Below are positions 1-24,973 of a stretch of DNA of 64,000 nucleotides, piece after piece. The stretch is from an uncultured Bacteroidales bacterium (lineage in GTDB: Bacteria > Bacteroidota > Bacteroidia > Bacteroidales > Muribaculaceae). The notes under the pieces were generated by a model, which saw only the letters and a program-made list of their open reading frames with translations, was not told the origin of the DNA and searched no databases. The position numbers and the translations under genes are program-made. Location: positions 12,584 to 76,583 of the forward strand of contig CAUFFJ010000004.1 in assembly GCA_959024545.1 (NCBI GenBank), given 5' to 3'. Each line of letters starts with the position of its first letter. Position 1 is the stretch's first letter.

Positions 1-3000
1 AGCAGCCACACCTCCGGCGCATAGTCCGTAATGCTGCTGGGTGATGTCGCCGAGATTGTAACTGTCGGTAAGGGTCATATATTCCTTGAGGTCGCTGACG
101 ATGCCCGCACACTGTGTATAAGCGCCTTTTACGTTGCCGGTATTATAGAGCCCCGAAGAGACAAGCCTGCGCTCCGACTTGGTCATGATGTCGGAATATA
201 CGCCGAGAGTATGCACGACACCTACGGCACGCTGGTTGGCTGAAGTGATGTCGCCAGTGTTGTAGCAGTCGGTCATGGGCATGTAGCTGGTCAGACCTAC
301 GCCGCTGACGGCGTTCTTGACTGAGAGATTACCTGTGTTGTAGCATCCCTTGATATATCCTGTACCACCTTCGGCAGCGGAATTGAACACGCCGAACACG
401 TTGGAGGCCTCAGGCAGGATGAAGTCGGCTGTATTGGCGCAGTCCTCAAGCACTGCATTGGCAGCCATCGAGCCGACGATGCCGTAGAGATTGGCATTGC
501 CGAGTAAAGTCTTCTCGTTGCGGCACCCGCGGATAGTTCCGGATGTGGAGAGCACGATTCCTGCGTAGTTGCTCTTTAGACGATGGCCTACTTCGCCGCG
601 GTTGATGCAGTTTTCGATAAGGCTGTTCTGGTAAGAATAGTATGCGATACCGGCAGCTGCGGTCTGTCCGCCATCGCTTCCGTTATCGGGCAATACCTTA
701 CCTTCGTTGACGCATCCGCGAATGACGCCTCCGTCATAGAGACGGAATGCTATGCCGCCGACCGAGGTGCTTGAATTGGTGCCTACCAGGCCGCGGTTGA
801 CGCAATTTTCTATAGTACCGTAGACGTGTCCTGCAAATCCACCCATATCACTGTGTCCGCGGATAATTCCGTCGATGGTAAGATTGCGGATTACGCCGGA
901 GTTTCCGAGGCTGCCGAACAGGCCAGTGCCTTTGGCCACGAATTTATTGGGATTATTGGGGTCTATGCGGTTGGCGAATCCGTTGGGATTATCGTAGACG
1001 AATCCTTTCAGGGTCTTGCCGTTGCCGTTGAGGTTGCCCTGGAAGCGGACGCCGTTGTAGGCTACCGGCTGGATGGAGTCGCCTGCGAAGTCGATGTCGC
1101 GTGTAATGATGAAGTGCGAGTTGGGGTATTCCCATCCGGTGGCTGCCACAAACTCGTAGAGCTTTTTCCAGTCGGCTTTGCTCTCGATACGGTATGGATC
1201 AGCCAGAGTGCCTTCGCCGGCAAATACCACGGGCACGGAGTTAATGACGTAAGTCTTCGTGTATCGGCTTCCAAGGTCAGCCGTGAGGGTATCGGCCAGC
1301 ACAGTCGTTCCGGTCGGGGGAACTACATTGAGGGTGCTTCCGGAGATGGAGAAGCCGTTGGAAGTAGCCAGCTCCCATTTGAGACCCGAAGCCTGCGAGA
1401 GCTCTACAGATTCGCGGATATTGGTGCGTATCTGCGAAGGCGCGAATTTCACGAAAATGGAGCGGAGAGCCCTGGAGGCGTCTTCGTTGGCAAACGTCTT
1501 GAGCACGGGATAAGCTCCGGCCTTGAAGTCGAATATATCTGCGCTCAGGCTGCCGACAGTCTTACCACCGGTGAGTTCTGATGTTGAGAGGGGTGTGGTG
1601 CCTTCCACATCGTTGCTCTGCATGCCGCCTGTGAGGTTGATGCTGCCGTCGTAGTAGTTGGCGCTGATTTCTTTTGACGATCCGCGCTGGCCTATGATGG
1701 CTCCGCGGGTTGCGGTCTGGCCGGAGCAGTTGATCTGGCCGTTGTTGATGCAGCCTCTCACTATACCCTCGCATTCGTGCACTACGGCTTTCTGGGGATT
1801 GTTGGGATCGGCTGTCAGATATGATGCCACAGTATAGGCTGCGATACCGCCTACTATTTCATCTCCGTATATCTGTCCGTTGTTGACGCAGTTTTCTATA
1901 AGACCATAGTTGTCGGAAGTAATGCCGCCCACAGAATTCTTTGACTCTTTGGCATTGAACGGAGCTGTGGTGCGGACGGCCACATCGCCGTCGTTCTGGC
2001 ATCGGATTATTCTTGCTCCGTCGTAGTTATAGCCTGAGATACCGCCTGCCACGCTTGTGCCGCAAGTCACGTTGCCGGCGTTGTAGCAGTCAGTGATTAC
2101 GCCTGAGTAATTGATGCCGGCAATGCCGCCTATCTGCCGCTGATGTCCACGCACGTCGGCATAGTTGCGGCAATTCTCGACGCGGCCGCGGTTGAATGCC
2201 ACTATTGCGCCTGAGAATATGTTGAAGTCGAAGCTGCAGTCGGCCGCTATGTTGAGGTTCTTTACGGTAGCGGTCGGATTCAGCTGATTGAAGAGTCCGT
2301 TGTATCCGTTGGGGCAGCTCGGATCGAAGTCGCCGTCAGCCTTGTAGGTGGCCATATCGAGTTTAAGGTTGTGAATCGAGTGTCCGCCGCCGTCGAATGT
2401 GCCTCCGAAACCAGTGCTAATCATAGATCCGTTGCCGAATCCCTTGAAACGTGTGTCGCCGTTGAAGTCGATGTCAGAGGCCATCAGGAAGAAGTCTCCG
2501 GCATGAGGCTGCCGGTGCGTGCTTATGGCTTCATGCAGCTTTACGAAGTCGTCGATAGTCTTGAGCAGATATGGAGAGCGCTCTGTACCGTCGCCGTCAA
2601 AGACTTTGGGCACCACGTCAAGCATATACAGCTTCATGCCGAGGCCGTCGGTAGTGGTGGCACCGACTATGGCCGTGCTGTAGATGTCCTTGACAGTGGC
2701 GAGGCTGCCGTTGAGCGAGAGAGCATCCGATTCAGTGTTGCCTGACTCGCCGTCGAGCGACCATTCCACTTTGGGAGAGCGTCCGAGTACAAACGATACC
2801 TTCACTTTGTTGGCATCGTCGCCTTCGCGCAGTATCAGGGGCACTGATGCCAGTGCTCCGGCGTATGTATCGGCAAAGGTCTTGAGGACGGGATATTTGC
2901 CCGAGGCAATGGCCCAGCGGTCGGCGCTGTATCCTTCCGGCAGGCGGCCGGTGATGTCTCTGGTGTTGCGGCCGAACTTTGCGCAGGGATAGCGGTTTAC

Positions 3001-5319
3001 CTGCTGGTCGAAGAAGCAGTTGGTGAAGCAGATGTCCTCAGGCAGGTCAGGGTATCCTTCTTCGTGGAATGCAAAGCCGAAGAGACCCTTGTTTCCCTCG
3101 GTAGAGGATGACGTGATCTGTCCTGAGTTATAGCAGTTGGTGAAATAGCTCTGCTGTATCATGGATACATTCGGGCCGGAGTGGAGATAGGCGAGCGACA
3201 GCTGTCCGGCGAGACCGCCCACGTTGTCATTGTCGCCGCTCATGATGATTGTGCCCGAGTTCATGCAGTCGTTGACCACGGCTCCTACTGTCAGACCGAA
3301 GAGGCCGCCGGCGTATGAGCTTGTGGACGAGCTGAGGCGGCGTCCGCTGATGGAGGCGGCGTTGATGCAGTTGGTAACAGTGCCGCGTGTGAGCAGACGG
3401 CCTGCCAGGCCACCGATGGCTCCGCGTCCGTAAGTATCTGAAAGTATGCCGATTACCATGCAGTCGCTCATGGTTCCTACCGAGAATACGCCGGCGATGC
3501 CGCCCACGTCGCGGGCCTTGGTCGAGATGAAGCCGTCCATATTGAACTGACCCTCTACCTTGCAGCCGGTGATTTCAGATTCGGATGCCTGCCCGGCGAT
3601 ACCTGCGATGGAGCCCATGCCGGTGATACGGCCGTGGAAAGAGCTGTTCTTCACCGTGCCCTGGAGCAGAGCTCCGCAGATGCCGCCTGTGAGCAGGCCT
3701 GATGTCTGAAGTATGCTGTTGCGTACGGTAACACCTTCGACAGTGCCTTCGCAGCGTCCGGCGACACATCCGATTTCCGTGCCGTTGCCGATAGCCATGA
3801 AGCCATCGAGCACAAGATTGCGCACGGCACCGGCCTTATCGATATAGCCGAACAGTCCGATATAGGGATAGCCCTTGCCGTCGATGCGCAGACCTTTAAC
3901 CGTATGTCCTTTGCCGTCGAAAATACCGGCAAAATGCGTTGTGGCATTTCCGACAGGCACATATTCGGTGACGGGAACTGCCGAGAGGTCGAGGTCAGCG
4001 CCGAGGGCGAAATGGCGTCCTGCGAAAGCATTGCCTCCCTCCACAGCCTGCGAGAGGGCAGTCAGTTCCTTGTAGGTGGATATGAGCCAGGGATCCGCAG
4101 CTGTGCCGCTTCCTTTGAAATCAACGCTTTCGGGCTGGGGGAAAGATATGTCGTAGGTGCCCGTAATCTTTACGTTGGCACGCGCCATCATCAGCATTGA
4201 GGCTGTCTCCTGGTCAGCTACATAGAAGCCTGCAAACGAGAGGGAGCCGTCGGCAGCGGGACGGGCCACAATAGGATTGGCGGTATCGGGCTTGCCGTTA
4301 GCGGTATTGACACCATATATATAAAAGGAGCCGTATATGCTGTGCTGGGCCACAAGCTGTGGCGAAAGTATCACAGTGCCGGCCGTGGTGAGACGGGCGC
4401 TGAGCGATGCCGTCATGCCGTCGAGCAGATGATAGATCATCACCTCATTGGGCGTAGTCTGCTCTACATACATCGGATATGTCACCACGTTGCCGCTTGC
4501 ACCGTCAGTGCCGCTGAATGTGGCATTGGGCACTGCCCATTGGCTGCTTTCGAAAATATTGAATGTAGCTTTGACTTTCTTAGAAGCCTCGTCGATGGCC
4601 ACTACCGCCCATCGGCCGAGAGTTACCTCGCCTTTGTCGTTGATCGTGCCGGCTATGGTGCGGTCGGTGGGTATCGAATATTTACCGTCGGCGCTCACGG
4701 TTACGGCTACTATGTCAATGTTGCCGTAAGCATCATTGTGTCCGAGGGTCTGCTGCGGGAGATAAACGCGCCCGGCAGCCGCGTCGACGGCCATTTTTAC
4801 TTTAGAATCCGTACCCCATTCAAAGAGGTTGGCCACTGTTACAGTGTCTGGGTGCCCGGTGGCTTCGACCGTTACAAGAGCTCCTAACATCTGGCCGTTA
4901 GTCGATTTGTCGCGTGAGATAAACTGTCCCGGCACAGCCTTTCCGGGAGCGCCGGCAGCGGGAGCCTTTATTGGGGCAGGGTCCTGACTGAAAGTGAATG
5001 AAATGCCTTTCAATGGCACGGGTAATGACGGAGAGACCGTAGGCGATTCCATCTGGAAATCGGCTTTTAGTGCCGTGTCGTCTGAGCTTATGGCCATATC
5101 ATCATAGCCAGGTTCCAGGGCGATGGCTTTGGTACGCGTATCCTGTCGGCCGACGGGAGGTGCGGGGATATCCGCAGTCTCGGCAGTCGCAGCTGGCGGA
5201 GCCATGGTCTGACGCAGCTCAGAGATGAAGCCGGTCGAGCCAGGGGCAGTCGTCGCCGCGTAGAGGGCCGGCAACGCCGCCCCCGTAGCAAGCAGGGCAA
5301 TCCTGATTTTTTTATTCAT
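1..5319 (-). CDS. Giant secreted repeat protein (GLUG-type beta-helix modules). It is N-terminally complete, and its C-terminus lies beyond the window start.
   Basis: Manual translation of minus-strand frame from ATG at 5319..5317 gives MNKKIRIALLATGAALPALYAA (signal peptide), then an uninterrupted protein-like reading to position 1. There are at least 3 modules beginning G(S/D/E)GTxxDP(W/Y)xIxT/S..., each followed by many repeats such as IENCVNxGxI / VGG(I/L)AG. No tracked minus ORF uses this frame (low coordinate = 1 mod 3); the track omits it because it has no stop inside the window. Confidence 0.6.
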   Translation of the reverse strand, partial: MNKKIRIALLATGAALPALYAATTAPGSTGFISELRQTMAPPAATAETADIPAPPVGRQDTRTKAIALEPGYDDMAISSDDTALKADFQMESPTVSPSLPVPLKGISFTFSQDPAPIKAPAAGAPGKAVPGQFISRDKSTNGQMLGALVTVEATGHPDTVTVANLFEWGTDSKVKMAVDAAAGRVYLPQQTLGHNDAYGNIDIVAVTVSADGKYSIPTDRTIAGTINDKGEVTLGRWAVVAIDEASKKVKATFNIFESSQWAVPNATFSGTDGASGNVVTYPMYVEQTTPNEVMIYHLLDGMTASLSARLTTAGTVILSPQLVAQHSIYGSFYIYGVNTANGKPDTANPIVARPAADGSLSFAGFYVADQETASMLMMARANVKITGTYDISFPQPESVDFKGSGTAADPWLISTYKELTALSQAVEGGNAFAGRHFALGADLDLSAVPVTEYVPVGNATTHFAGIFDGKGHTVKGLRIDGKGYPYIGLFGYIDKAGAVRNLVLDGFMAIGNGTEIGCVAGRCEGTVEGVTVRNSILQTSGLLTGGICGALLQGTVKNSSFHGRITGMGSIAGIAGQASESEITGCKVEGQFNMDGFISTKARDVGGIAGVFSVGTMSDCMVIGILSDTYGRGAIGGLAGRLLTRGTVTNCINAASISGRRLSSSTSSYAGGLFGLTVGAVVNDCMNSGTIIMSGDNDNVGGLAGQLSLAYLHSGPNVSMIQQSYFTNCYNSGQITSSSTEGNKGLFGFAFHEEGYPDLPEDICFTNCFFDQQVNRYPCAKFGRNTRDITGRLPEGYSADRWAIASGKYPVLKTFADTYAGALASVPLILREGDDANKVKVSFVLGRSPKVEWSLDGESGNTESDALSLNGSLATVKDIYSTAIVGATTTDGLGMKLYMLDVVPKVFDGDGTERSPYLLKTIDDFVKLHEAISTHRQPHAGDFFLMASDIDFNGDTRFKGFGNGSMISTGFGGTFDGGGHSIHNLKLDMATYKADGDFDPSCPNGYNGLFNQLNPTATVKNLNIAADCSFDFNIFSGAIVAFNRGRVENCRNYADVRGHQRQIGGIAGINYSGVITDCYNAGNVTCGTSVAGGISGYNYDGARIIRCQNDGDVAVRTTAPFNAKESKNSVGGITSDNYGLIENCVNNGQIYGDEIVGGIAAYTVASYLTADPNNPQKAVVHECEGIVRGCINNGQINCSGQTATRGAIIGQRGSSKEISANYYDGSINLTGGMQSNDVEGTTPLSTSELTGGKTVGSLSADIFDFKAGAYPVLKTFANEDASRALRSIFVKFAPSQIRTNIRESVELSQASGLKWELATSNGFSISGSTLNVVPPTGTTVLADTLTADLGSRYTKTYVINSVPVVFAGEGTLADPYRIESKADWKKLYEFVAATGWEYPNSHFIITRDIDFAGDSIQPVAYNGVRFQGNLNGNGKTLKGFVYDNPNGFANRIDPNNPNKFVAKGTGLFGSLGNSGVIRNLTIDGIIRGHSDMGGFAGHVYGTIENCVNRGLVGTNSSTSVGGIAFRLYDGGVIRGCVNEGKVLPDNGSDGGQTAAAGIAYYSYQNSLIENCINRGEVGHRLKSNYAGIVLSTSGTIRGCRNEKTLLGNANLYGIVGSMAANAVLEDCANTADFILPEASNVFGVFNSAAEGGTGYIKGCYNTGNLSVKNAVSGVGLTSYMPMTDCYNTGDITSANQRAVGVVHTLGVYSDIMTKSERRLVSSGLYNTGNVKGAYTQCAGIVSDLKEYMTLTDSYNLGDITQQHYGLCAGGVAA

Positions 5320-5540
5320 ACTGATTATTTTTGGTTTGTTAGATAAGGCTTAAGCGGAAAGGGAATTTATCAATTACTTAAGGCTTGTGATAAGATTCGC
5401 AGACAAGCGCCTGACTGCCGAGAGCCGGGCGAAAGGCAACTTATAGTCAACAAAGTTATAAAAAGTGGATTGACTGTGCAAATTCTCCTCAAAAATCTTA
5501 TACTATGATAATAAATTATGTATCTAAATGAAATAGGGAT

Positions 5541-5643: not shown

Positions 5644-5895
5644 TCAGTGCTTGCGGTTGCCGTAGCGGCTGCGGAACTTGTCCACACGTCCGGCGGTGTC
5701 GACCAGTTTCTGCTTACCTGTGAAGAAGGGGTGAGATGAGCTGGTGATTTCAAGCTTTACCAGAGGATACTCCTTGCCGTCGATTTCGATGGTCTCGCGT
5801 GAAGCGACAGTAGAACGAGTGATGAAGATCTCATCGTTCGACATATCTTTGAAGACCACTTCCCGATAGTTGGAGGGATGAATGTCTTTTTTCAT
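5644..5895 (-). CDS. rpmE: 50S ribosomal protein L31
   Basis: 83 aa; [17 protein letters not shown]... is the typical L31 N-terminus. Confidence 0.9.
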
Positions 5896-5970: not shown

Positions 5971-6042
5971 GCAATAAATTCTGACCCGGCCAAATTTCCG
6001 GCCTCTTTCACCTCAAAATAACGTGAATTTATTCGCGCATCA

Positions 6043-6572
6043 TTAAATACTATTCGTAGGGATATATTGCTCAATATTGACAGAGGATAGCTTGCTGCCT
6101 TTGGCGATGACCTCCGCTATAAAGGCATTCACATCCTCTTTTGTCATTTTCTTCCTGATGAATGCATAATAGAGAAAATCAATCGTAGTCAGGTATGTTA
6201 TCTGATGATTGGCACAATACTCCCTTATATCCCGGAGATTGCTACTGCCGAGAACATCCTTGCTGTCACGACAATAGACCATGCAGGCACTTTCCCCCTT
6301 GCCTAAAAGAATGTGTTACGAAGTCGCGCATATTCAAATCGAGATTCGCCTTTCGGGTCAAACTTGACATTCACAATGCGTGAGGCAAAGAATTTGAGTG
6401 TATTGTCAATCTGGGTTTTCGTCAACCTGTTTACCGTGACTTCATCATATACCACATCAAGTATCAGATACTGATACTCCGGGAATATGTCAAGGAATAG
6501 GCTGAATTGCCCAGCCTTGACAAAATGGATGATCACATCGGCATCAAGTACGATTTTAGTCTTCGTTGTCAT
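6043..6572 (-). pseudogene. PIN-domain (VapC-like) toxin gene interrupted by a 1-nt frameshift in a T/A homopolymer
   Basis: The N-terminal part is the 89-aa ORF 6303..6572 (MTTKTKIVLDADVIIHF... ...FEYARLRNTFF*). The C-terminal part continues in another frame (HILLGKGESACMVYCRDSKD...ITYLTTIDFLYYAF...) to 6043. One extra T in the tttt run (plus-strand aaaa at ~6297-6300) would join them as ...RNTFFLGKGES... The conserved PIN acidic positions D(9), E(YDEV) and T.D..F are present. Confidence 0.5.
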
Positions 6573-6873
6573 CTATGCCGATTTTGTGTAACAGTTCCAT
6601 GTAGTGCCCTTCGGAAATTTTCTCCTCGTCAAAAAGCCTGCGGGCTTTCTCTCCGAAATCTCCAATCACAAGATTCTCATTGCCCGGCTCATACAAAGCC
6701 GTGTCATAGCCATACTCTCTTGCGGTTTTCTTCACAGGGTATTCCTTGAATGTATCGCGCTCGACACGGTCTATCAGTTTCAGATCATACAGACGGTTGA
6801 GAACGTCTGAGAAAGAAACGGAAAAATAATGTTCTATGCGCAATACCGATGCCAACGACACGCGACCTGCCAT
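6556..6873 (-). CDS. C-terminal domain ORF, in frame with and 3 nt downstream of the ImmA/IrrE peptidase ORF
   Basis: 105 aa. ATG at 6873..6871 lies in the same frame as 6877..7269, separated only by TAA (6879..6877) plus CTG. Confidence 0.4.
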   Translation of the reverse strand: MAGRVSLASVLRIEHYFSVSFSDVLNRLYDLKLIDRVERDTFKEYPVKKTAREYGYDTALYEPGNENLVIGDFGEKARRLFDEEKISEGHYMELLHKIGIDDNED

Positions 6874-6876
6874 CAG

Positions 6877-7269
6877 TTAATCATCAGGAATCATTTGCCT
6901 GACACCATCCGCCGGCATAAGAAACATAAGGGCAAAAGCATCGGCGCACTGCTCCACATCGTTTTTCTTACCCTCTGCCATGCAGTTGTGTGGCATGGGA
7001 TTCGGGTCGATATAAAGATGATAGAGTTCATGGGCTATTGTGAAATGCTGTCGGCATCGGGGATGATTCGAGTTGACAAGCATAAACCGCTTGTCTCCGC
7101 TTTTGAGGCTCATGCCCGAAAAATCTTTTGACAACGGTCTGTATATGGTCAACACGTTCAGTTTCAAGAGCAGGCTTTTGAGATTTACTGCCTCACTGTC
7201 ACTCAACCCTGTCATCTGACGGAATTTAGAGACCTGACTTTCCACAAGATTTAATAACGACGCTTTCAT
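6877..7269 (-). CDS. ImmA/IrrE family Zn-metallopeptidase (COG2856)
   Basis: 130 aa. HEXXH motif (IAHELYHLY) and downstream E..A.AFAL.FLMP motif. Start overlaps the XRE gene stop (ATGA at 7266-7269). Confidence 0.7.
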   Translation of the reverse strand: MKASLLNLVESQVSKFRQMTGLSDSEAVNLKSLLLKLNVLTIYRPLSKDFSGMSLKSGDKRFMLVNSNHPRCRQHFTIAHELYHLYIDPNPMPHNCMAEGKKNDVEQCADAFALMFLMPADGVRQMIPDD

Positions 7270-7601
7270 CTTGCTTCTATTGCCTCCATTTTAAGGTAAG
7301 ACTTTACAATGTCCTTGAAACGCATTATCTCGCCCGCATCCTCAGGGGTAATCCCGTCGATGCGGAACGCGGATGCAAGAATCATGGCATCCACATTATC
7401 GTTTTCCTCAAACATTATTGTCATATCACATCCGAAGAAATCGCTTGCTTTCTCAATGACATCGTAAGGCACCTCTCTGTCGCCCGATTCATAATTGCTG
7501 TAAGCCGAGCGTGTGATGCCAAGAGCCTGTGCCAGTTCATCCTGAGTATAGCGTGAAGTCTCTCTTAATTTCTTTAGATTCTGGGCGATTGTCTTGTCCA
7601 T
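7266..7601 (-). CDS. XRE-family helix-turn-helix transcriptional regulator
   Basis: 111 aa; ...LKKLRETSRYTQDELAQALGITRSAYSNYESGDREVPYDVIEK... is a typical HTH_XRE. Confidence 0.75.
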   Translation of the reverse strand: MDKTIAQNLKKLRETSRYTQDELAQALGITRSAYSNYESGDREVPYDVIEKASDFFGCDMTIMFEENDNVDAMILASAFRIDGITPEDAGEIMRFKDIVKSYLKMEAIEAR

Positions 7602-7780
7602 ATCATGATTGTTTCGTGTGGCAAAGTTACTAAATCTTTTTCATATATCAACGATTTGCCACGCTTAAATGTTGCCGCTTAAATGATGCAAACAGCTTTC
7701 CCCATATTCTTGGAAGTGTTGTAATTACCAATGTGAGATGGTTGGATACAACAAAAGCCTGATTGCTCAGGCTTTATTGC

Positions 7781-7866
7781 GGAGAGACAGGGATTCGAAC
7801 CCTGGGTGCCTAAAAGGCACAACGGTTTTCGAGACCGCCCCGATCGACCACTCCGGCATCTCTCCT
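7781..7866 (-). tRNA. tRNA-Ser (anticodon CGA)
   Basis: Minus-strand sequence GGAGAGATGCCGGAGTGGTCGATCGGGGCGGTCTCGAAAACCGTTGTGCCTTTTAGGCACCCAGGGTTCGAATCCCTGTCTCTCCG. Acceptor stem, 7-nt anticodon loop CTCGAAA, long variable arm and T-arm GGTTCGAATCC are all present. Confidence 0.85.
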
Positions 7867-10215: not shown

Positions 10216-11214
10216 ATGCAAAATATATCACGAGATATCGATGACCGGCGGCTAGCGGCTCTGATCGCGAAGTGGGAGAGGGCTGAACTTTCGGCCGAAG
10301 AAGAGCTCCTGCTTGAGGAGATTGCTACGGAATATGTGCTGACACAGTCGGGCGAAAGCTGTCGGGGAGTCCGGGCATCCGCCGATGAAGGGCGGGCGCT
10401 CCATGGAGCGCCCCTACAGGGGTCGGCGTGCCTGAGCCATGATGCTGAGCTGCGCCTGATCGCTGATCTTACGCTTGCCGCCTGTGTATCGGCATCTGCA
10501 GCCGGCAGATGGAGTGAATCGGAACTGTCGGGTCTCGATGCGCGGTTTGACGATGCTATTCATAAGGCTGCTCTTACCGAAAGCATTTCGGATACATCGG
10601 CCAATGCCTTGGCAGGCAAGGCACGACCCTCTAAAGCTTTCCGCAGGAAGTGGCTTCGCTTCGGAGTAGCAGCGGCGGTGGCCTGTCTGCTTTTCGGCGG
10701 CGGCTTGCGACTGATGCAGTATGATGCGGCCGCCCCCGTAGGGGCGCACCATGGTGCGCCCGCCCAAGAATCCGGGGCGCGATTGTCCATCAATGGGGAT
10801 GCGCCCGAGAAAACCAATCCTTTATCCGGGCGCACCATGATGCGTCCCTACCTGGCATCCGCCTCCGATGAAGGACGGGCGCAACATGATGCGCCGAAGC
10901 AGCCATCTGCCGGGGGACGTGAAGAATCGCGACCATACGAACTGGCCTCCGATGAAAGACGGGCGCATCATGATGCGCCCCTACAGTCCCCCGACGTTAT
11001 GGAAGAGGACGAGCCCTCGCAGCCCGTCTGGCTTCCGGCCACGGCATCGCTGCCGGCTACCCGCGACGATGACTCGCCGTTGATCACAGCCAAAGCAATT
11101 ACTTCCACAGCTAATCATCTTGATGATGCTTTCACAAGCGGAGAGAAAAGCGTGGCCCACGTTGCCCTTCTGCTTGAAGATCTTTTCGGCGACGGCATAT
11201 CGCTTGATGAATAA
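10216..11214 (+). CDS. Anti-sigma-factor-like membrane protein whose central part is encoded by palindromic repeat copies
   Basis: 332 aa; positioned between the ECF sigma and the DUF4252 protein. One TM (RFGVAAAVACLLFGGGL). Peptide repeats ASADEGRALHGAPLQ / ASASDEGRAQHDAPKQ / LASDERRAHHDAPLQ / GAHHGAPAQ are encoded by GGGCGCNNCATGNNGCGCCC palindromes at about 10378-10990. Confidence 0.45.
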   Translation: MQNISRDIDDRRLAALIAKWERAELSAEEELLLEEIATEYVLTQSGESCRGVRASADEGRALHGAPLQGSACLSHDAELRLIADLTLAACVSASAAGRWSESELSGLDARFDDAIHKAALTESISDTSANALAGKARPSKAFRRKWLRFGVAAAVACLLFGGGLRLMQYDAAAPVGAHHGAPAQESGARLSINGDAPEKTNPLSGRTMMRPYLASASDEGRAQHDAPKQPSAGGREESRPYELASDERRAHHDAPLQSPDVMEEDEPSQPVWLPATASLPATRDDDSPLITAKAITSTANHLDDAFTSGEKSVAHVALLLEDLFGDGISLDE

Positions 11215-11250
11215 ATACTTACCTTAACAGCCTATAAAATACTTACTTAT

Positions 11251-11718
11251 ATGAAACCTATCCTTACTCTTCTTTGTGCCCTGCTGATGACGGTGGCCAC
11301 TGCTTTTGCCGACGACAACGCCCTCTTCAAGGAGCTGGCCTCGCATAACGACATCCAGTATACTTACTTCTCTCCGGCAATGCTCCAGGCATTTGGCGAC
11401 CGGCAGATACGCACTAAAAATTTCTCGATTTCCGCATCCGATCTTACAAGCGTAGAGACGGTAAAGACCATGGGCGACGGTAAGGCAAATAAGGCCGTGA
11501 TGAACCAGGTGAAAAAAATAATCAAGAATGAGAAGCTGGAGGTGCTTGCCACCAAGACAAGTCAGTTAGGAAGCTATTATACTATCTTAGGACGTCCGCA
11601 GAAGAAAGGGCGCCAGCTCAGCCAGCTGCTCTGTATCGATTTCTCCGCTGCTGAATTTCTGACCGTAACCTATCTCAGAGGCAATATTACCCTCGATGAT
11701 GCCCGGCTGCCTTTCTGA
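11251..11718 (+). CDS. DUF4252 domain protein (secreted)
   Basis: 155 aa with a signal peptide. It has the typical position after an ECF sigma/anti-sigma pair in Bacteroidales. Confidence 0.6.
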   Translation: MKPILTLLCALLMTVATAFADDNALFKELASHNDIQYTYFSPAMLQAFGDRQIRTKNFSISASDLTSVETVKTMGDGKANKAVMNQVKKIIKNEKLEVLATKTSQLGSYYTILGRPQKKGRQLSQLLCIDFSAAEFLTVTYLRGNITLDDARLPF

Positions 11719-24420: not shown

Positions 24421-24667
24421 ATATGAAAATAGTTGAGTTGAGAGTGCCGCCTGTGTGACAGCCTTGAGTGCAGGCACAGACGCGGGCTGTCTGAAAGCGA
24501 TGGCTTTCAGCAATACAAAGATATAAAAAATATTTGGAACGGCCAAAAATAGGGCACCCCCTTCAGGCTTTTTGCCTATGGTCTGCGTCGTAGCTGCATG
24601 AGAAACGTAAGGATAAAAGAAGACCGCAATCAGCTAATGTAATAACTGACTGCGGTCTAAAAAAGAG

Positions 24668-24751
24668 TGTCCGGGATGAGACTCGAACTCACACGGCCAA
24701 ACGGCCACTACCCCCTCAAAGTAGCGCGTCTACCAATTCCGCCACCTGGAC
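24668..24751 (-). tRNA. tRNA-Leu (anticodon GAG)
   Basis: GTCCAGGTGGCGGAATTGGTAGACGCGCTACTTTGAGGGGGTAGTGGCCGTTTGGCCGTGTGAGTTCGAGTCTCATCCCGGACA; long variable arm; anticodon loop TTGAGGG. Confidence 0.8.
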
Positions 24752-24774
24752 ATTCTAACCGCTTGAAAAGGGCT

Positions 24775-24850
<76 letters not shown>

Positions 24851-24907
24851 GAATGAGGATTTCAGTAATCCACTGCCAGTATTTCATTGTTCTCTCTTGG
24901 AGCGAAA

Positions 24908-24973
<66 letters not shown>

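What the first reader, a model, noticed from the sequence alone, without database searches (positions are those of the whole stretch)
6043..7601. Decayed XRE / ImmA(IrrE) Zn-peptidase / PIN three-component toxin-antitoxin-like module next to tRNA-Ser
Four overlapping minus-strand ORFs form one operon: XRE HTH, then ImmA/IrrE HEXXH peptidase (COG2856), then an in-frame C-terminal ORF, then a PIN nuclease. By eye they sit in an AT-richer patch between rpmE and tRNA-Ser(CGA). COG2856 peptidase plus XRE antitoxin plus a toxin is a computationally predicted three-component TA/abortive-infection architecture. Here both the peptidase (nonsense codon) and the toxin (frameshift) appear disrupted. This suggests a decaying or recently inactivated module, possibly the remnant of an element that targeted the tRNA.
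Basis: partly seen in the sequence, partly recalled or inferred. Interest (0 to 1): 0.55.

Follow-up and report, generated by a model that had tools for sequence, protein, structure and literature searches.

The report
Decayed XRE–ImmA–PIN stress/defence cassette
This is a broken copy of a small three-gene cassette (repressor, zinc peptidase, PIN-fold nuclease) that is common and normally intact in gut Bacteroidales; related strains show the same site empty, intact, and half-broken, so it is a tidy but ordinary example of an accessory toxin/defence module decaying.

Summary
Window 6043-7601 (minus strand) holds an XRE repressor (111 aa), an ImmA/IrrE M78 zinc peptidase cut by an in-frame TAA (6877-6879), and a third gene split by a 1-nt deletion (between 6310 and 6309). 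Restoring both lesions gives 111/237/176-aa proteins. These match an intact, tightly overlapping triad found in 78 of the 80 Bacteroidales species representatives examined. The third protein fails Pfam PIN HMMs, but a confident AlphaFold model (pLDDT 96.7) matches only PIN/VapC structures, and the acidic residues are family-invariant. All three proteins hit PADLOC's untested candidate system PDC-M69, and the first two also hit CapH/CapP. The same MATE–tRNA-Ser–rpmE locus in closely related strains occurs in four states: empty, intact, frameshift only (most contigs, 10 haplotypes), and frameshift plus nonsense (this window). So this is a strain-variable 1.7-kb AT-rich insert (GC 0.44 against 0.55), decaying toxin first. 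The window has no tRNA-derived direct repeats and no integrase. In other species the cassette often sits just after tRNA-Ser, sometimes bracketed by repeats of the tRNA 3' end. It is a new, pseudogenised member of a predicted but experimentally untested kind. Interest is modest.

The parts
6035..7744 (-). Strain-variable inserted segment (1710 nt, GC 0.439). It holds the whole cassette plus about 70 nt of non-conserved leader on the tRNA side and 8 nt after the last stop codon.
   Evidence: The empty allele L023 matches window 8100-7745 and 6034-5600 and has 50 unrelated nt in between. GC.
7618..7662 (-). Promoter/operator. Inverted repeat GTGGCAA (7662-7656) - N31 - TTGCCAC (7624-7618). The right arm overlaps a Bacteroidetes-type -7 box TAACTTTG (7629-7622).
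   Evidence: The repeat is present with a 30-32 nt spacer in 72 of 75 cassettes from other genomes, while the spacer sequence itself varies. TAnnTTTG is present in 72 of 75. Conservation between cassettes begins about 75 nt upstream of the XRE ATG. Assignment as the XRE operator is an inference.
7266..7601 (-). XRE-family HTH repressor, 111 aa, intact. HTH at residues 5-61; the C-terminal tail carries the invariant A78-F79-R80.
   Evidence: Pfam HTH_3 2.7e-14. PADLOC capH 6.2e-10 over residues 2-98, and PDC-M69A 8.5e-4. AFR is >=97% conserved in 78 sequences.
6556..7269 (-). ImmA/IrrE-type M78 zinc peptidase, 237 codons, a pseudogene here. H80-E81-x-x-H84 and E106 are present. The TAA at 6877-6879 replaces invariant Glu131.
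   Evidence: Pfam Peptidase_M78 2.5e-15 across the stop codon. PADLOC PDC-M69B 1e-22 and capP 2.8e-20. G at 6879 in all 24 other same-locus contigs that carry the insert except L033. E131 is invariant.
6877..6879 (-). Nonsense codon TAA (GAA in sister alleles). It is private to this strain.
   Evidence: Also present in L033.
6043..6572 (-). PIN-fold (VapC-like) nuclease gene, 176 codons when repaired, a pseudogene here. A 1-nt deletion between 6310 and 6309 creates a TAG at 6303-6305. The invariant G93-E94 lies between the two pieces and is lost from both.
   Evidence: The repaired protein matches 1667 homologues, mostly 176 aa, at up to 91% identity and 100% coverage. AF2 pLDDT 96.7. The listed Foldseek matches are almost all PIN-domain proteins, mostly VapC toxins. 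The intact allele L025 has the extra A.
7779..7865 (-). tRNA-Ser(CGA), upstream neighbour. It is not part of the insert but is a recurrent neighbour of this cassette family.
   Evidence: ARAGORN. tRNA-Ser lies directly upstream on the same strand in 9 of 80 other species.

Best explanation
The region is a pseudogenised copy of a compact, self-regulated three-gene cassette that is widespread in Bacteroidales. In its intact form the XRE protein most likely binds the two conserved half-sites that bracket the cassette's own promoter and keeps the operon nearly off. The ImmA/IrrE-type zinc peptidase, when activated by a stress or infection signal, would cut XRE in its C-terminal tail at the invariant Ala-Phe|Arg. 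By analogy with CapP, IrrE and ImmA, that signal would be DNA damage or single-stranded DNA. Cleavage would derepress the operon and free or overproduce the PIN-fold nuclease, which would degrade RNA and arrest the cell, acting as an abortive-infection or toxin effector. In this lineage the cassette arrived as a 1.7-kb AT-rich insert just downstream of tRNA-Ser(CGA). The nuclease was then inactivated by a 1-nt deletion that is now the common allele. In this particular strain the peptidase was later hit by a nonsense mutation. What is shown: gene identities, the PIN fold, the lesions, the allelic series, the conserved operator and the conserved AFR motif. What is inferred: the cleavage event, its trigger, the RNase activity, and any role in phage defence.
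For: Domains: HTH_3 and Peptidase_M78. PADLOC profiles capH/capP and PDC-M69A/B/C match in the same gene order. PIN fold: AF2 pLDDT 96.7, pTM 0.91. Foldseek top hits are VapC toxins, 2mdt (COG2405), FitB, Nob1 and SMG6, with probability 1.0 and E down to 9e-5. D10, E44, E94, D115 and D132 are conserved across a 30-60%-identity family. Triad architecture: the same order and overlaps in about 78 of 80 species representatives. Third-codon-position bias shows purifying selection in intact copies. Operator: GTGGCAA-N31-TTGCCAC in 72 of 75 cassettes, overlapping the -7 box. Cleavage motif: A78-F79-R80 is invariant. CapP cuts CapH between F82 and R83 and is activated by ssDNA (bioRxiv 10.1101/2022.04.27.489752; 10.64898/2026.05.16.725639). 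Published predictions of the architecture: Makarova 2009 (PMC2701414) and Matelska 2017 (PMC5499597). Decay series: empty L023, intact L025, frameshift in 10 haplotypes, frameshift plus nonsense in the window and L033.
Against: No experiment exists for this family; PDC-M69 is only a PADLOC candidate. Pfam PIN models do not detect the third protein. The capP profile match covers only the peptidase domain (positions 6-153 of 242). The remaining roughly 75 aa are too short for CapP/IrrE's HTH+GAF sensor, so the trigger may differ. All three genes share one operon, unlike CapH/CapP, which sit beside the operon they regulate. It is therefore unclear whether XRE also neutralises the nuclease by direct binding. 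The equivalence of F79|R80 with CapH F82|R83 rests on profile coordinates, not on a residue-level alignment to the E. coli protein.
Confidence: 0.72

Rival explanations
1. XRE and ImmA form the immunity/induction switch of a mobile element, like ImmR/ImmA of ICEBs1. On this reading the PIN-fold gene is cargo or an element-maintenance factor rather than a stress-released toxin or defence effector.
For: In some genomes the cassette lies inside or next to mobile DNA. There is a tyrosine-integrase-like ORF next to it in L039, L090 and L094. Neighbours shared between L086, L088 and L089, and between L036, L037, L046 and L084, look relaxase- or conjugation-like from their sequences only (not checked with HMMs). 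There are tRNA 3'-end direct repeats around it in L063, L010 and L039. ImmR/ImmA is the founding example of this peptidase/repressor pair (PMC2701414).
Against: No gene family other than the three cassette genes recurs among 84 loci. The conserved DNA stops at the promoter on one side and at the third gene's stop codon on the other. The operator sits on the cassette's own promoter. In most loci, including the window, no integrase or conjugation genes are nearby.
Confidence: 0.13
2. The two interruptions are not inactivating. The third gene would be expressed by -1 ribosomal frameshifting or as two polypeptides that reassemble, and the peptidase by stop-codon readthrough or re-initiation at the ATG two codons after the stop.
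For: The downstream ORFs remain open. An ATG follows each lesion closely (6873 for ImmA, 6282 for the nuclease). The frameshift allele is the common one in this lineage.
Against: The frameshift is a derived 1-nt deletion relative to the sister allele L025, which is 99.5% identical. 78 of 80 species have one uninterrupted ORF. There is no X XXY YYZ slippery heptamer at TTC TTT TAG (direct reading). The family-invariant G93-E94 falls between the stop and the restart ATG and would be missing from both pieces. The break lies in the middle of the PIN alpha/beta core. TAA replaces an invariant Glu.
Confidence: 0.05
3. One or both lesions are sequencing or assembly errors in the window genome.
For: The nonsense codon is seen only in the window and in L033. 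L033 comes from run SRR13494517, which also yielded MAGs in the genome collection (for example L111), so the two may share reads.
Against: The frameshift is present in 23 of the 24 other same-locus contigs that carry the cassette, from many samples and assemblers, in 10 haplotypes. It is not in a long homopolymer. The nonsense codon is a G->T substitution reproduced by an independent assembler (Logan) at 100% identity over 5 kb.
Confidence: 0.04

Closest known systems
PADLOC candidate system PDC-M69 (three genes A/B/C; computational candidate, not validated)
   Same: All three proteins match the A, B and C profiles in the same order (E = 8.5e-4, 1e-22, 2.8e-6). The sizes are similar: profile lengths 113/272/188 against proteins of 111/237/176 aa.
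   Different: The matches to A and C are weak, and the C match covers only residues 5-68. No paper in the searchable library names PDC-M69. The window copy is non-functional.
Predicted three-component HTH + DUF955/COG2856 protease + PIN-like (COG2405/DUF3368, DUF4411) systems (Makarova 2009, PMC2701414; Matelska 2017, PMC5499597)
   Same: The same three domains are co-transcribed, with the PIN-like protein as the presumed toxin and the protease presumed to cleave the XRE protein. Precomputed annotation gives homologues a weak PF11848 (DUF3368) hit.
   Different: Here HTH and peptidase are separate proteins, not the frequent fusion. The current Pfam models do not reach significance on this subfamily. 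The cited systems are themselves untested predictions.
CapH/CapP (DNA-damage-responsive regulators of CBASS and other defence operons) and IrrE/DdrO of Deinococcus
   Same: An XRE repressor with a C-terminal oligomerisation tail is paired with an M78 peptidase. The capH and capP profiles match (6.2e-10, 2.8e-20). An invariant Phe-Arg lies in the XRE tail where CapP cuts CapH (F82|R83).
   Different: The peptidase here is 237 aa, and the capP match ends at profile position 153 of 242, so the HTH+GAF ssDNA-sensing part appears to be absent or replaced. Regulator and effector share one operon. The effector is a single small PIN protein.
VapBC type II toxin-antitoxin systems
   Same: The effector has the VapC PIN fold with conserved acidic residues. 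The operon is small, autoregulated and horizontally mobile.
   Different: The antitoxin candidate is an XRE protein rather than an AbrB/RHH/Phd type. A dedicated peptidase replaces Lon/Clp. Sequence identity to solved VapCs is only 10-18%.
ImmR/ImmA of ICEBs1, and integrase-less islands flanked by att sites (CIME-like elements)
   Same: The repressor/peptidase pair is the same. In relatives the cassette is bracketed by repeats of a tRNA 3' end without its own integrase (L063).
   Different: In the window there are no att-like repeats and no element genes. The link to mobile elements is inconsistent across loci.

Membership tests
Peptidase M78 / COG2856 (ImmA/IrrE) | HEXXH zinc-binding motif plus a downstream Glu ligand; significant match to the family HMM | tested here: met
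   H80-E81-L-Y-H84 and E106 are present and >=97% conserved. PF06114 E=2.5e-15, 56.8 bits against a cut-off of 22.
Peptidase M78 / COG2856 (ImmA/IrrE) | Uninterrupted coding sequence (functional member) | tested here: not met
   TAA at 6877-6879 replaces invariant Glu131. Sister alleles have GAA.
CapH/CapP-type regulator pair | XRE repressor with a C-terminal oligomerisation domain that carries the peptidase cleavage site (Phe|Arg in CapH) | tested here: inconclusive
   The capH profile matches residues 2-98 (6.2e-10). A78-F79-R80 is invariant. Residue-level equivalence to CapH F82|R83 was not established and cleavage was not tested.
CapH/CapP-type regulator pair | Peptidase with central HTH and C-terminal GAF domain that senses ssDNA; cysteine-switch loop in a subset | tested here: not met
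   The capP profile is matched only at positions 6-153 of 242. Only about 75 residues remain after the peptidase domain. The structure of the C-terminal part was not modelled.
PIN domain (VapC-like) nucleases | PIN alpha/beta/alpha fold | tested here: met
   The AF2 model of the intact homologue P0001 has pLDDT 96.7. The listed Foldseek PDB matches are almost all PIN-domain proteins, mostly VapC toxins, with probability 1.0 and target-normalised TM 0.6-0.7.
PIN domain (VapC-like) nucleases | Conserved acidic residues forming the metal site | tested here: met
   D10, E44, E94, D115 and D132 are invariant or nearly so across 77-80 diverse family members. Their positions in the active site were not inspected in 3D.
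PIN domain (VapC-like) nucleases | Significant match to a curated PIN-clan HMM (PF01850, PF11848/DUF3368 and others) | tested here: not met
   No hit at E<=1 for the repaired protein or 43 close homologues. 2 of 80 distant members hit PF01850 at 1e-3. Only a precomputed 'weak' PF11848 hit exists.
PIN domain (VapC-like) nucleases | Intact ORF in this window | tested here: not met
   The 1-nt deletion between 6310 and 6309 splits the gene into 89-aa and 79-aa pieces and removes G93-E94.
PADLOC PDC-M69 candidate defence system | Three adjacent genes matching profiles A, B and C | tested here: met
   E = 8.5e-4 (A), 1e-22 (B) and 2.8e-6 (C), same order. The A and C matches are weak.
PADLOC PDC-M69 candidate defence system | Protection against phage | not testable with these tools
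   No experimental report was found.
Type II toxin-antitoxin module | Toxin neutralised by direct binding of the co-encoded antitoxin; autoregulated operon | not testable with these tools
   Autoregulation is suggested by the conserved inverted repeat on the promoter. Binding and neutralisation are untested.
tRNA-targeting integrative island (or its remnant) | Direct repeat of the tRNA 3' end at the far border of the insert | tested here: not met
   In the window the 24-mer (<=3 mismatches) and the 14-mer (<=2 mismatches) of the tRNA-Ser 3' end occur only in the tRNA itself. The insert begins 35 nt past the tRNA. The feature is met in relatives: L063 (19-mer three times, the third copy 18/19), L010 (15/16), L039 and L066.
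tRNA-targeting integrative island (or its remnant) | Integrase gene within the island | tested here: not met
   The 1710-nt insert holds only the three cassette genes. No integrase-like family recurs next to the cassette; it appears in 3 of 84 loci, and in L039 it lies beyond the repeat.

The most novel reading that the evidence does not exclude
The three-gene cassette may be the sole cargo of an integrase-less mini-island that is inserted at, and occasionally excised from, the 3' end of tRNA-Ser genes by integrases supplied in trans from co-resident elements. The toxin-first order of decay seen here would then reflect selection to disarm the nuclease while keeping the XRE/ImmA switch, for instance as anti-addiction immunity against incoming copies.
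Probability: 0.25. Interest if true: 0.5.

Novelty: new member of a known kind. Interest (0 to 1): 0.3.

Why it matters
The HTH–COG2856 peptidase–PIN architecture has been predicted since 2009 and is listed as a defence candidate, but it has never been tested. This work supplies a well-bounded, very compact family for such a test. The family is about 1.65 kb, with a conserved operator, an invariant putative cleavage motif, and a confident PIN model that the Pfam-A PIN models searched here do not detect. It occurs across gut Bacteroidales. A natural allelic series (empty, intact, toxin-null, toxin- and peptidase-null) exists within one Muribaculaceae lineage. That series gives ready-made controls for testing whether the nuclease is toxic, whether XRE or ImmA matter without it, and whether the cassette affects phage sensitivity in the gut. 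For the window itself the message is simpler: these are pseudogenes and should be annotated as such.

Tried and rejected
(1) Pfam and NCBIfam searches on the third protein, alone and for 43 and 80 family members, gave no usable PIN hit.

(2) Profile searches against PDB sequences found nothing meaningful. phmmer of ImmA against PDB found nothing.

(3) The first AlphaFold run, on a shallow alignment (>=75% identity), gave pLDDT 64.8 and a non-significant fold search. I rejected it in favour of the diverse alignment.

(4) I looked for tRNA-derived direct repeats and terminal inverted repeats around the window insert. No repeat of the tRNA 3' end is present. The 11-nt inverted repeat at 7689-7679 / 6047-6037 is not conserved in other cassettes and was rejected as chance.

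(5) An exact-product look-up of the 130-aa ImmA fragment returned nothing, although L033 carries it. I treat this as an index limitation, not as evidence.

(6) L010 looked like a second species carrying the same frameshift inside a 535-bp tract 100% identical to the window. However, L013/L022 from the same metagenome carries a reciprocal patch of L010-like SNPs. I therefore treat the mosaic as a probable assembly chimera and draw no conclusion from it.

(7) A programmed frameshift was considered and rejected; see the rival explanations.

(8) A weak ImmA-like tblastn hit at about 18.1-18.7 kb lies in a 562-aa ORF. From its sequence this looks like an acyl-CoA/AMP-dependent ligase (not checked with HMMs). 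I judged the hit spurious.

(9) I searched for a phage origin. Only 3 hits came from 2.9 million viral contigs, two of the three close to a contig end, so the cassette is not typically phage-borne.

(10) rpmE and MATE were not found next to the cassette in any of the 80 species representatives, so this exact location is specific to the window's lineage.
Full report
**1. What is in the window**

On the minus strand between tRNA-Ser(CGA) (7779-7865) and rpmE (5644-5895) lie five ORF pieces that belong to three genes.

- Gene 1 (7266-7601, 111 aa) is an XRE-family HTH protein (Pfam HTH_3, E=2.7e-14).
- Gene 2 is an ImmA/IrrE-type M78 zinc peptidase. Its N-terminal piece (6877-7269, 130 aa) carries HELYH and matches Peptidase_M78 (7.6e-13). 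After a TAA (6877-6879) and one codon, the same frame continues for 105 aa (6556-6873). With the stop masked, the Pfam match extends across it (residues 37-160, E=2.5e-15).
- Gene 3 is in two pieces (6303-6572, 89 aa; 6043-6282, 79 aa) whose frames differ by one base.
- The genes overlap: XRE/ImmA by 4 nt and ImmA/gene 3 by 17 nt.
- The segment is AT-rich, with GC 0.439 against 0.55-0.56 in the flanks.

**2. The lesions are real mutations of a normally intact triad**

The repaired gene-3 protein (176 aa) finds 1667 homologues. The best 120 are mostly 176 aa, cover 91-100% of the query and are 71-91% identical; the source names, where given, are mostly Muribaculaceae or Duncaniella. Their genomic contexts always show genes of 111, 237 and 176 aa with the same overlaps.

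- A MAG of the same lineage (L008, GCA_900761855.1) differs from the window by one base in 2501. It has G instead of T at 6879, so the nonsense codon is GAA (Glu131) -> TAA.
- Another strain (L025) has a cassette 99.5% identical to the window's, with an extra A between 6310 and 6309. The frameshift is therefore a 1-nt deletion (TTA CTT -> TT CTT) and does not lie in a long homopolymer.
- The 89-aa truncated product is listed in 88 blocks of the public collection.
- Among 28 contigs of this locus there are about 11 cassette haplotypes. Ten share the deletion and only L025 is intact. The nonsense codon occurs only in the window and in L033.
- L033 is a Logan assembly of run SRR13494517 and is 100% identical to the window over 5 kb. 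It may be a re-assembly of the same reads. It rules out an assembler artefact but is not an independent strain.

**3. The locus is polymorphic for the whole cassette**

Contigs that encode the same rpmE protein include an empty allele (L023 plus five similar places). There, MATE and tRNA-Ser are followed directly by rpmE. Alignment places the borders at window 7745/7744 and 6035/6034. The window has 1710 nt where the empty allele has 50 unrelated nt.

There is no target-site duplication, no repeat of the tRNA 3' end and no conserved terminal inverted repeat. The insert starts 35 nt beyond the tRNA, after its terminator hairpin.

One lineage therefore shows all four states: empty, intact, nuclease-null, and nuclease- plus peptidase-null. 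In the rpmE-anchored sample the rough proportions were 12 frameshift, 6 empty and 1 intact. The order of decay is nuclease first, then peptidase. XRE is still intact everywhere.

**4. What the third gene is**

Sequence models do not identify it.

- Pfam gives no hit at E<=1 for the repaired protein or 43 close homologues.
- Only 2 of 80 distant members reach PF01850, at 1e-3.
- PDB sequence profiles give nothing.
- The collection's precomputed annotation lists a weak PF11848 (DUF3368) hit. That family belongs to the COG2405 PIN-like cluster of Matelska et al. (PMC5499597).

A full search of 1.84 billion representatives gave 579 relatives. An alignment of 80 of them (29-61% identity to the query) gave an AlphaFold model with pLDDT 96.7 and pTM 0.91.

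Almost all of the listed Foldseek matches in the PDB are PIN-domain proteins. They include Pyrococcus VapC4 (5h4g), Shigella, Rickettsia, Salmonella and Mycobacterium VapCs, FitB, Nob1, SMG6, and 2mdt, the solved COG2405 member. Probability is 1.0, E is down to 9e-5, and target-normalised TM is 0.6-0.7.

D10, E44, E94, D115 and D132 are invariant or nearly so. So the PIN assignment stands on fold and conserved acidic residues, not on HMMs.

The deletion cuts the fold in the middle. It also leaves the invariant G93-E94 outside both pieces.

**5. The family and its cis-elements**

A scan of one genome per species found the triad in Muribaculaceae, Bacteroides, Parabacteroides, Phocaeicola, Paraprevotella, Butyricimonas, Odoribacter and others. 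Order and spacing are the same in about 78 of 80 loci. Two or three loci show decay (L084, L085).

DNA conservation between cassettes in unrelated contexts (80-83% identity) begins about 75 nt upstream of XRE and ends at the stop codon of gene 3. Differences are concentrated at third codon positions, which indicates purifying selection on intact copies.

Upstream of XRE, the inverted repeat GTGGCAA-N31(±1)-TTGCCAC is present in 72 of 75 cassettes, although the spacer sequence varies. Its right arm overlaps a Bacteroidetes -7 box TAnnTTTG. In the window the arms are at 7662-7656 and 7624-7618. This is best read as the XRE operator on the cassette's own promoter, which is an inference.

No other gene family recurs beside the cassette in 84 loci. 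Only 3 of 2.9 million viral contigs carry a relative.

**6. How the intact system most likely works**

PADLOC profiles tie the first two proteins to CapH (6.2e-10, nearly full length) and to CapP (2.8e-20, peptidase domain only). All three proteins match the candidate system PDC-M69 A/B/C (8.5e-4, 1e-22, 2.8e-6).

In CapH/CapP, IrrE/DdrO and ImmR/ImmA, the peptidase cleaves the C-terminal oligomerisation region of the XRE repressor after a DNA-damage signal. CapP cuts CapH between F82 and R83 and is switched on by single-stranded DNA.

In the present family, A78-F79-R80 in the XRE tail is invariant across 78 sequences.

My best model has three steps:

- XRE represses its own promoter.
- Activated ImmA cuts XRE at F79|R80.
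- The operon is derepressed and the PIN nuclease accumulates or is released, arresting the cell.

This is the three-component scheme predicted by Makarova et al. 2009 and Matelska et al. 2017.

Two things differ from CapP. The peptidase is short, with no room for the HTH+GAF sensor, so the trigger is uncertain. The regulator and effector also share one operon, so XRE may additionally act as a direct antitoxin. None of this has been tested for any member.

**7. The tRNA question**

In the window the evidence is negative (section 3). Across the family the association is real.

- In 9 of 80 other species, tRNA-Ser (CGA or TGA) lies 175-2150 nt upstream of XRE on the same strand. By chance one would expect roughly 5e-4 per locus.
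- In L063 the 19-mer CGAATCCCTGTCTTTCCGC occurs three times: in the tRNA, 103 nt later as a scar, and 50 nt after the cassette (18/19 identity). The cassette is thus bracketed as a 1.8-kb unit.
- L010 has 15/16 and 23/24 repeats around an IS plus the cassette.
- L039 has two repeats after the cassette, followed by a tyrosine-integrase-like gene.
- L041 has a scar between the tRNA and the cassette.
- In one strain of the window's own lineage (L011/L020), a foreign element with a primase-like gene is inserted at the tRNA-Ser 3' end. Identity to the window resumes at 7794, within the last 16 nt of the tRNA.

So tRNA-Ser is an integration hotspot, and in some genomes the cassette behaves as cargo of an integrase-less mini-island. 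In this window the borders give no sign of that mechanism. The insert could equally have arrived by homologous recombination.

**8. Caveat on L010**

L010 carries the same frameshift inside a 535-bp tract identical to the window (6698-6163), while the rest of its cassette is 8-10% diverged. L013/L022, from the same metagenome, carries a reciprocal patch of L010-like SNPs at 7126-7174. This pattern is what graph-path switching in a metagenome assembly would produce. I do not use it as evidence for spread of the null allele.

**9. Verdict**

The thing is a pseudogenised, strain-variable copy of a widespread Bacteroidales XRE–M78 peptidase–PIN cassette. That kind is already predicted in the literature and listed as a defence candidate, but it is untested.

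It is a new member of a known kind. Interest in the window copy itself is low to moderate. The family, with its clean boundaries, conserved operator and cleavage motif, and natural allelic series, would be a convenient system for the first experimental test of this architecture.

Noticed in passing
L011/L020 (Logan SRR31841378), junction equivalent to window 7794: In one strain of the same lineage a foreign element replaces the MATE–tRNA side. It carries a 1079-aa DnaG-primase-like gene, a GerE/LuxR-type regulator and small ORFs. Identity to the window resumes within the last 16 nt of tRNA-Ser, as expected for an element integrated into the tRNA 3' end upstream of the cassette.
   Followed up: partly
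L010 (3972-5530) and L013/L022, both from sample ERZ28514630; window 6163-6698 and 7126-7174: There are reciprocal mosaic patches between two diverged cassettes assembled from one metagenome. L010 has a 535-bp tract identical to the window, including the frameshift. L013/L022 has 8 L010-like SNPs. This is either recombination between co-resident strains or, more likely, an assembly chimera.
   Followed up: partly
L038, L041, L063 intergenic regions between tRNA-Ser and the cassette (e.g. L063 4670-4760 and 4810-4870): A pseudo-tRNA-like scar motif recurs (GGGATGAGAAYCC...GGGTTCGTNAYCGCGAAGCGC..., sometimes ending in the tRNA-Ser 3' 19-mer). This suggests repeated integration and excision at tRNA-Ser in Muribaculaceae.
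   Followed up: partly
window 7662-7689: A tandem 14-nt duplication (CGCTTAAATGTTGC / CGCTTAAATGATGC on the plus strand) lies at the upstream edge of the conserved cassette DNA. It overlaps the first base of the left operator arm. It was not seen in the other cassettes examined, and its meaning is unknown.
   Followed up: no
window 1-5420 (minus strand; gene runs off the window start): Downstream of rpmE, relatives encode a 2128-2131-aa protein with a faint Glug-repeat hit. This flank is more diverged between strains (92.5% identity) than the MATE flank (97.3%), as expected for a variable surface protein.
   Followed up: no
L084 5462-6348 (Muribaculaceae MAG SRR18940306_bin.28); compare window 24667-24973: A decayed, peptidase-less fragment of the PIN-like gene lies about 1 kb from a tRNA-Leu(GAG)–tRNA-Gly(GCC)x2 cluster in another Muribaculaceae genome. 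The window has the same tRNA cluster at 24667-24973 but no cassette remnant there (tblastn).
   Followed up: partly
L005-L007, about 700 nt downstream of the cassette: In one genomic context the intact cassette sits next to a HicA/HicB toxin-antitoxin pair, which hints at a small TA/defence islet.
   Followed up: no
window 11200-11600: There is a second AT-rich dip (GC about 0.46 against 0.55-0.62 around it). It was not examined.
   Followed up: no
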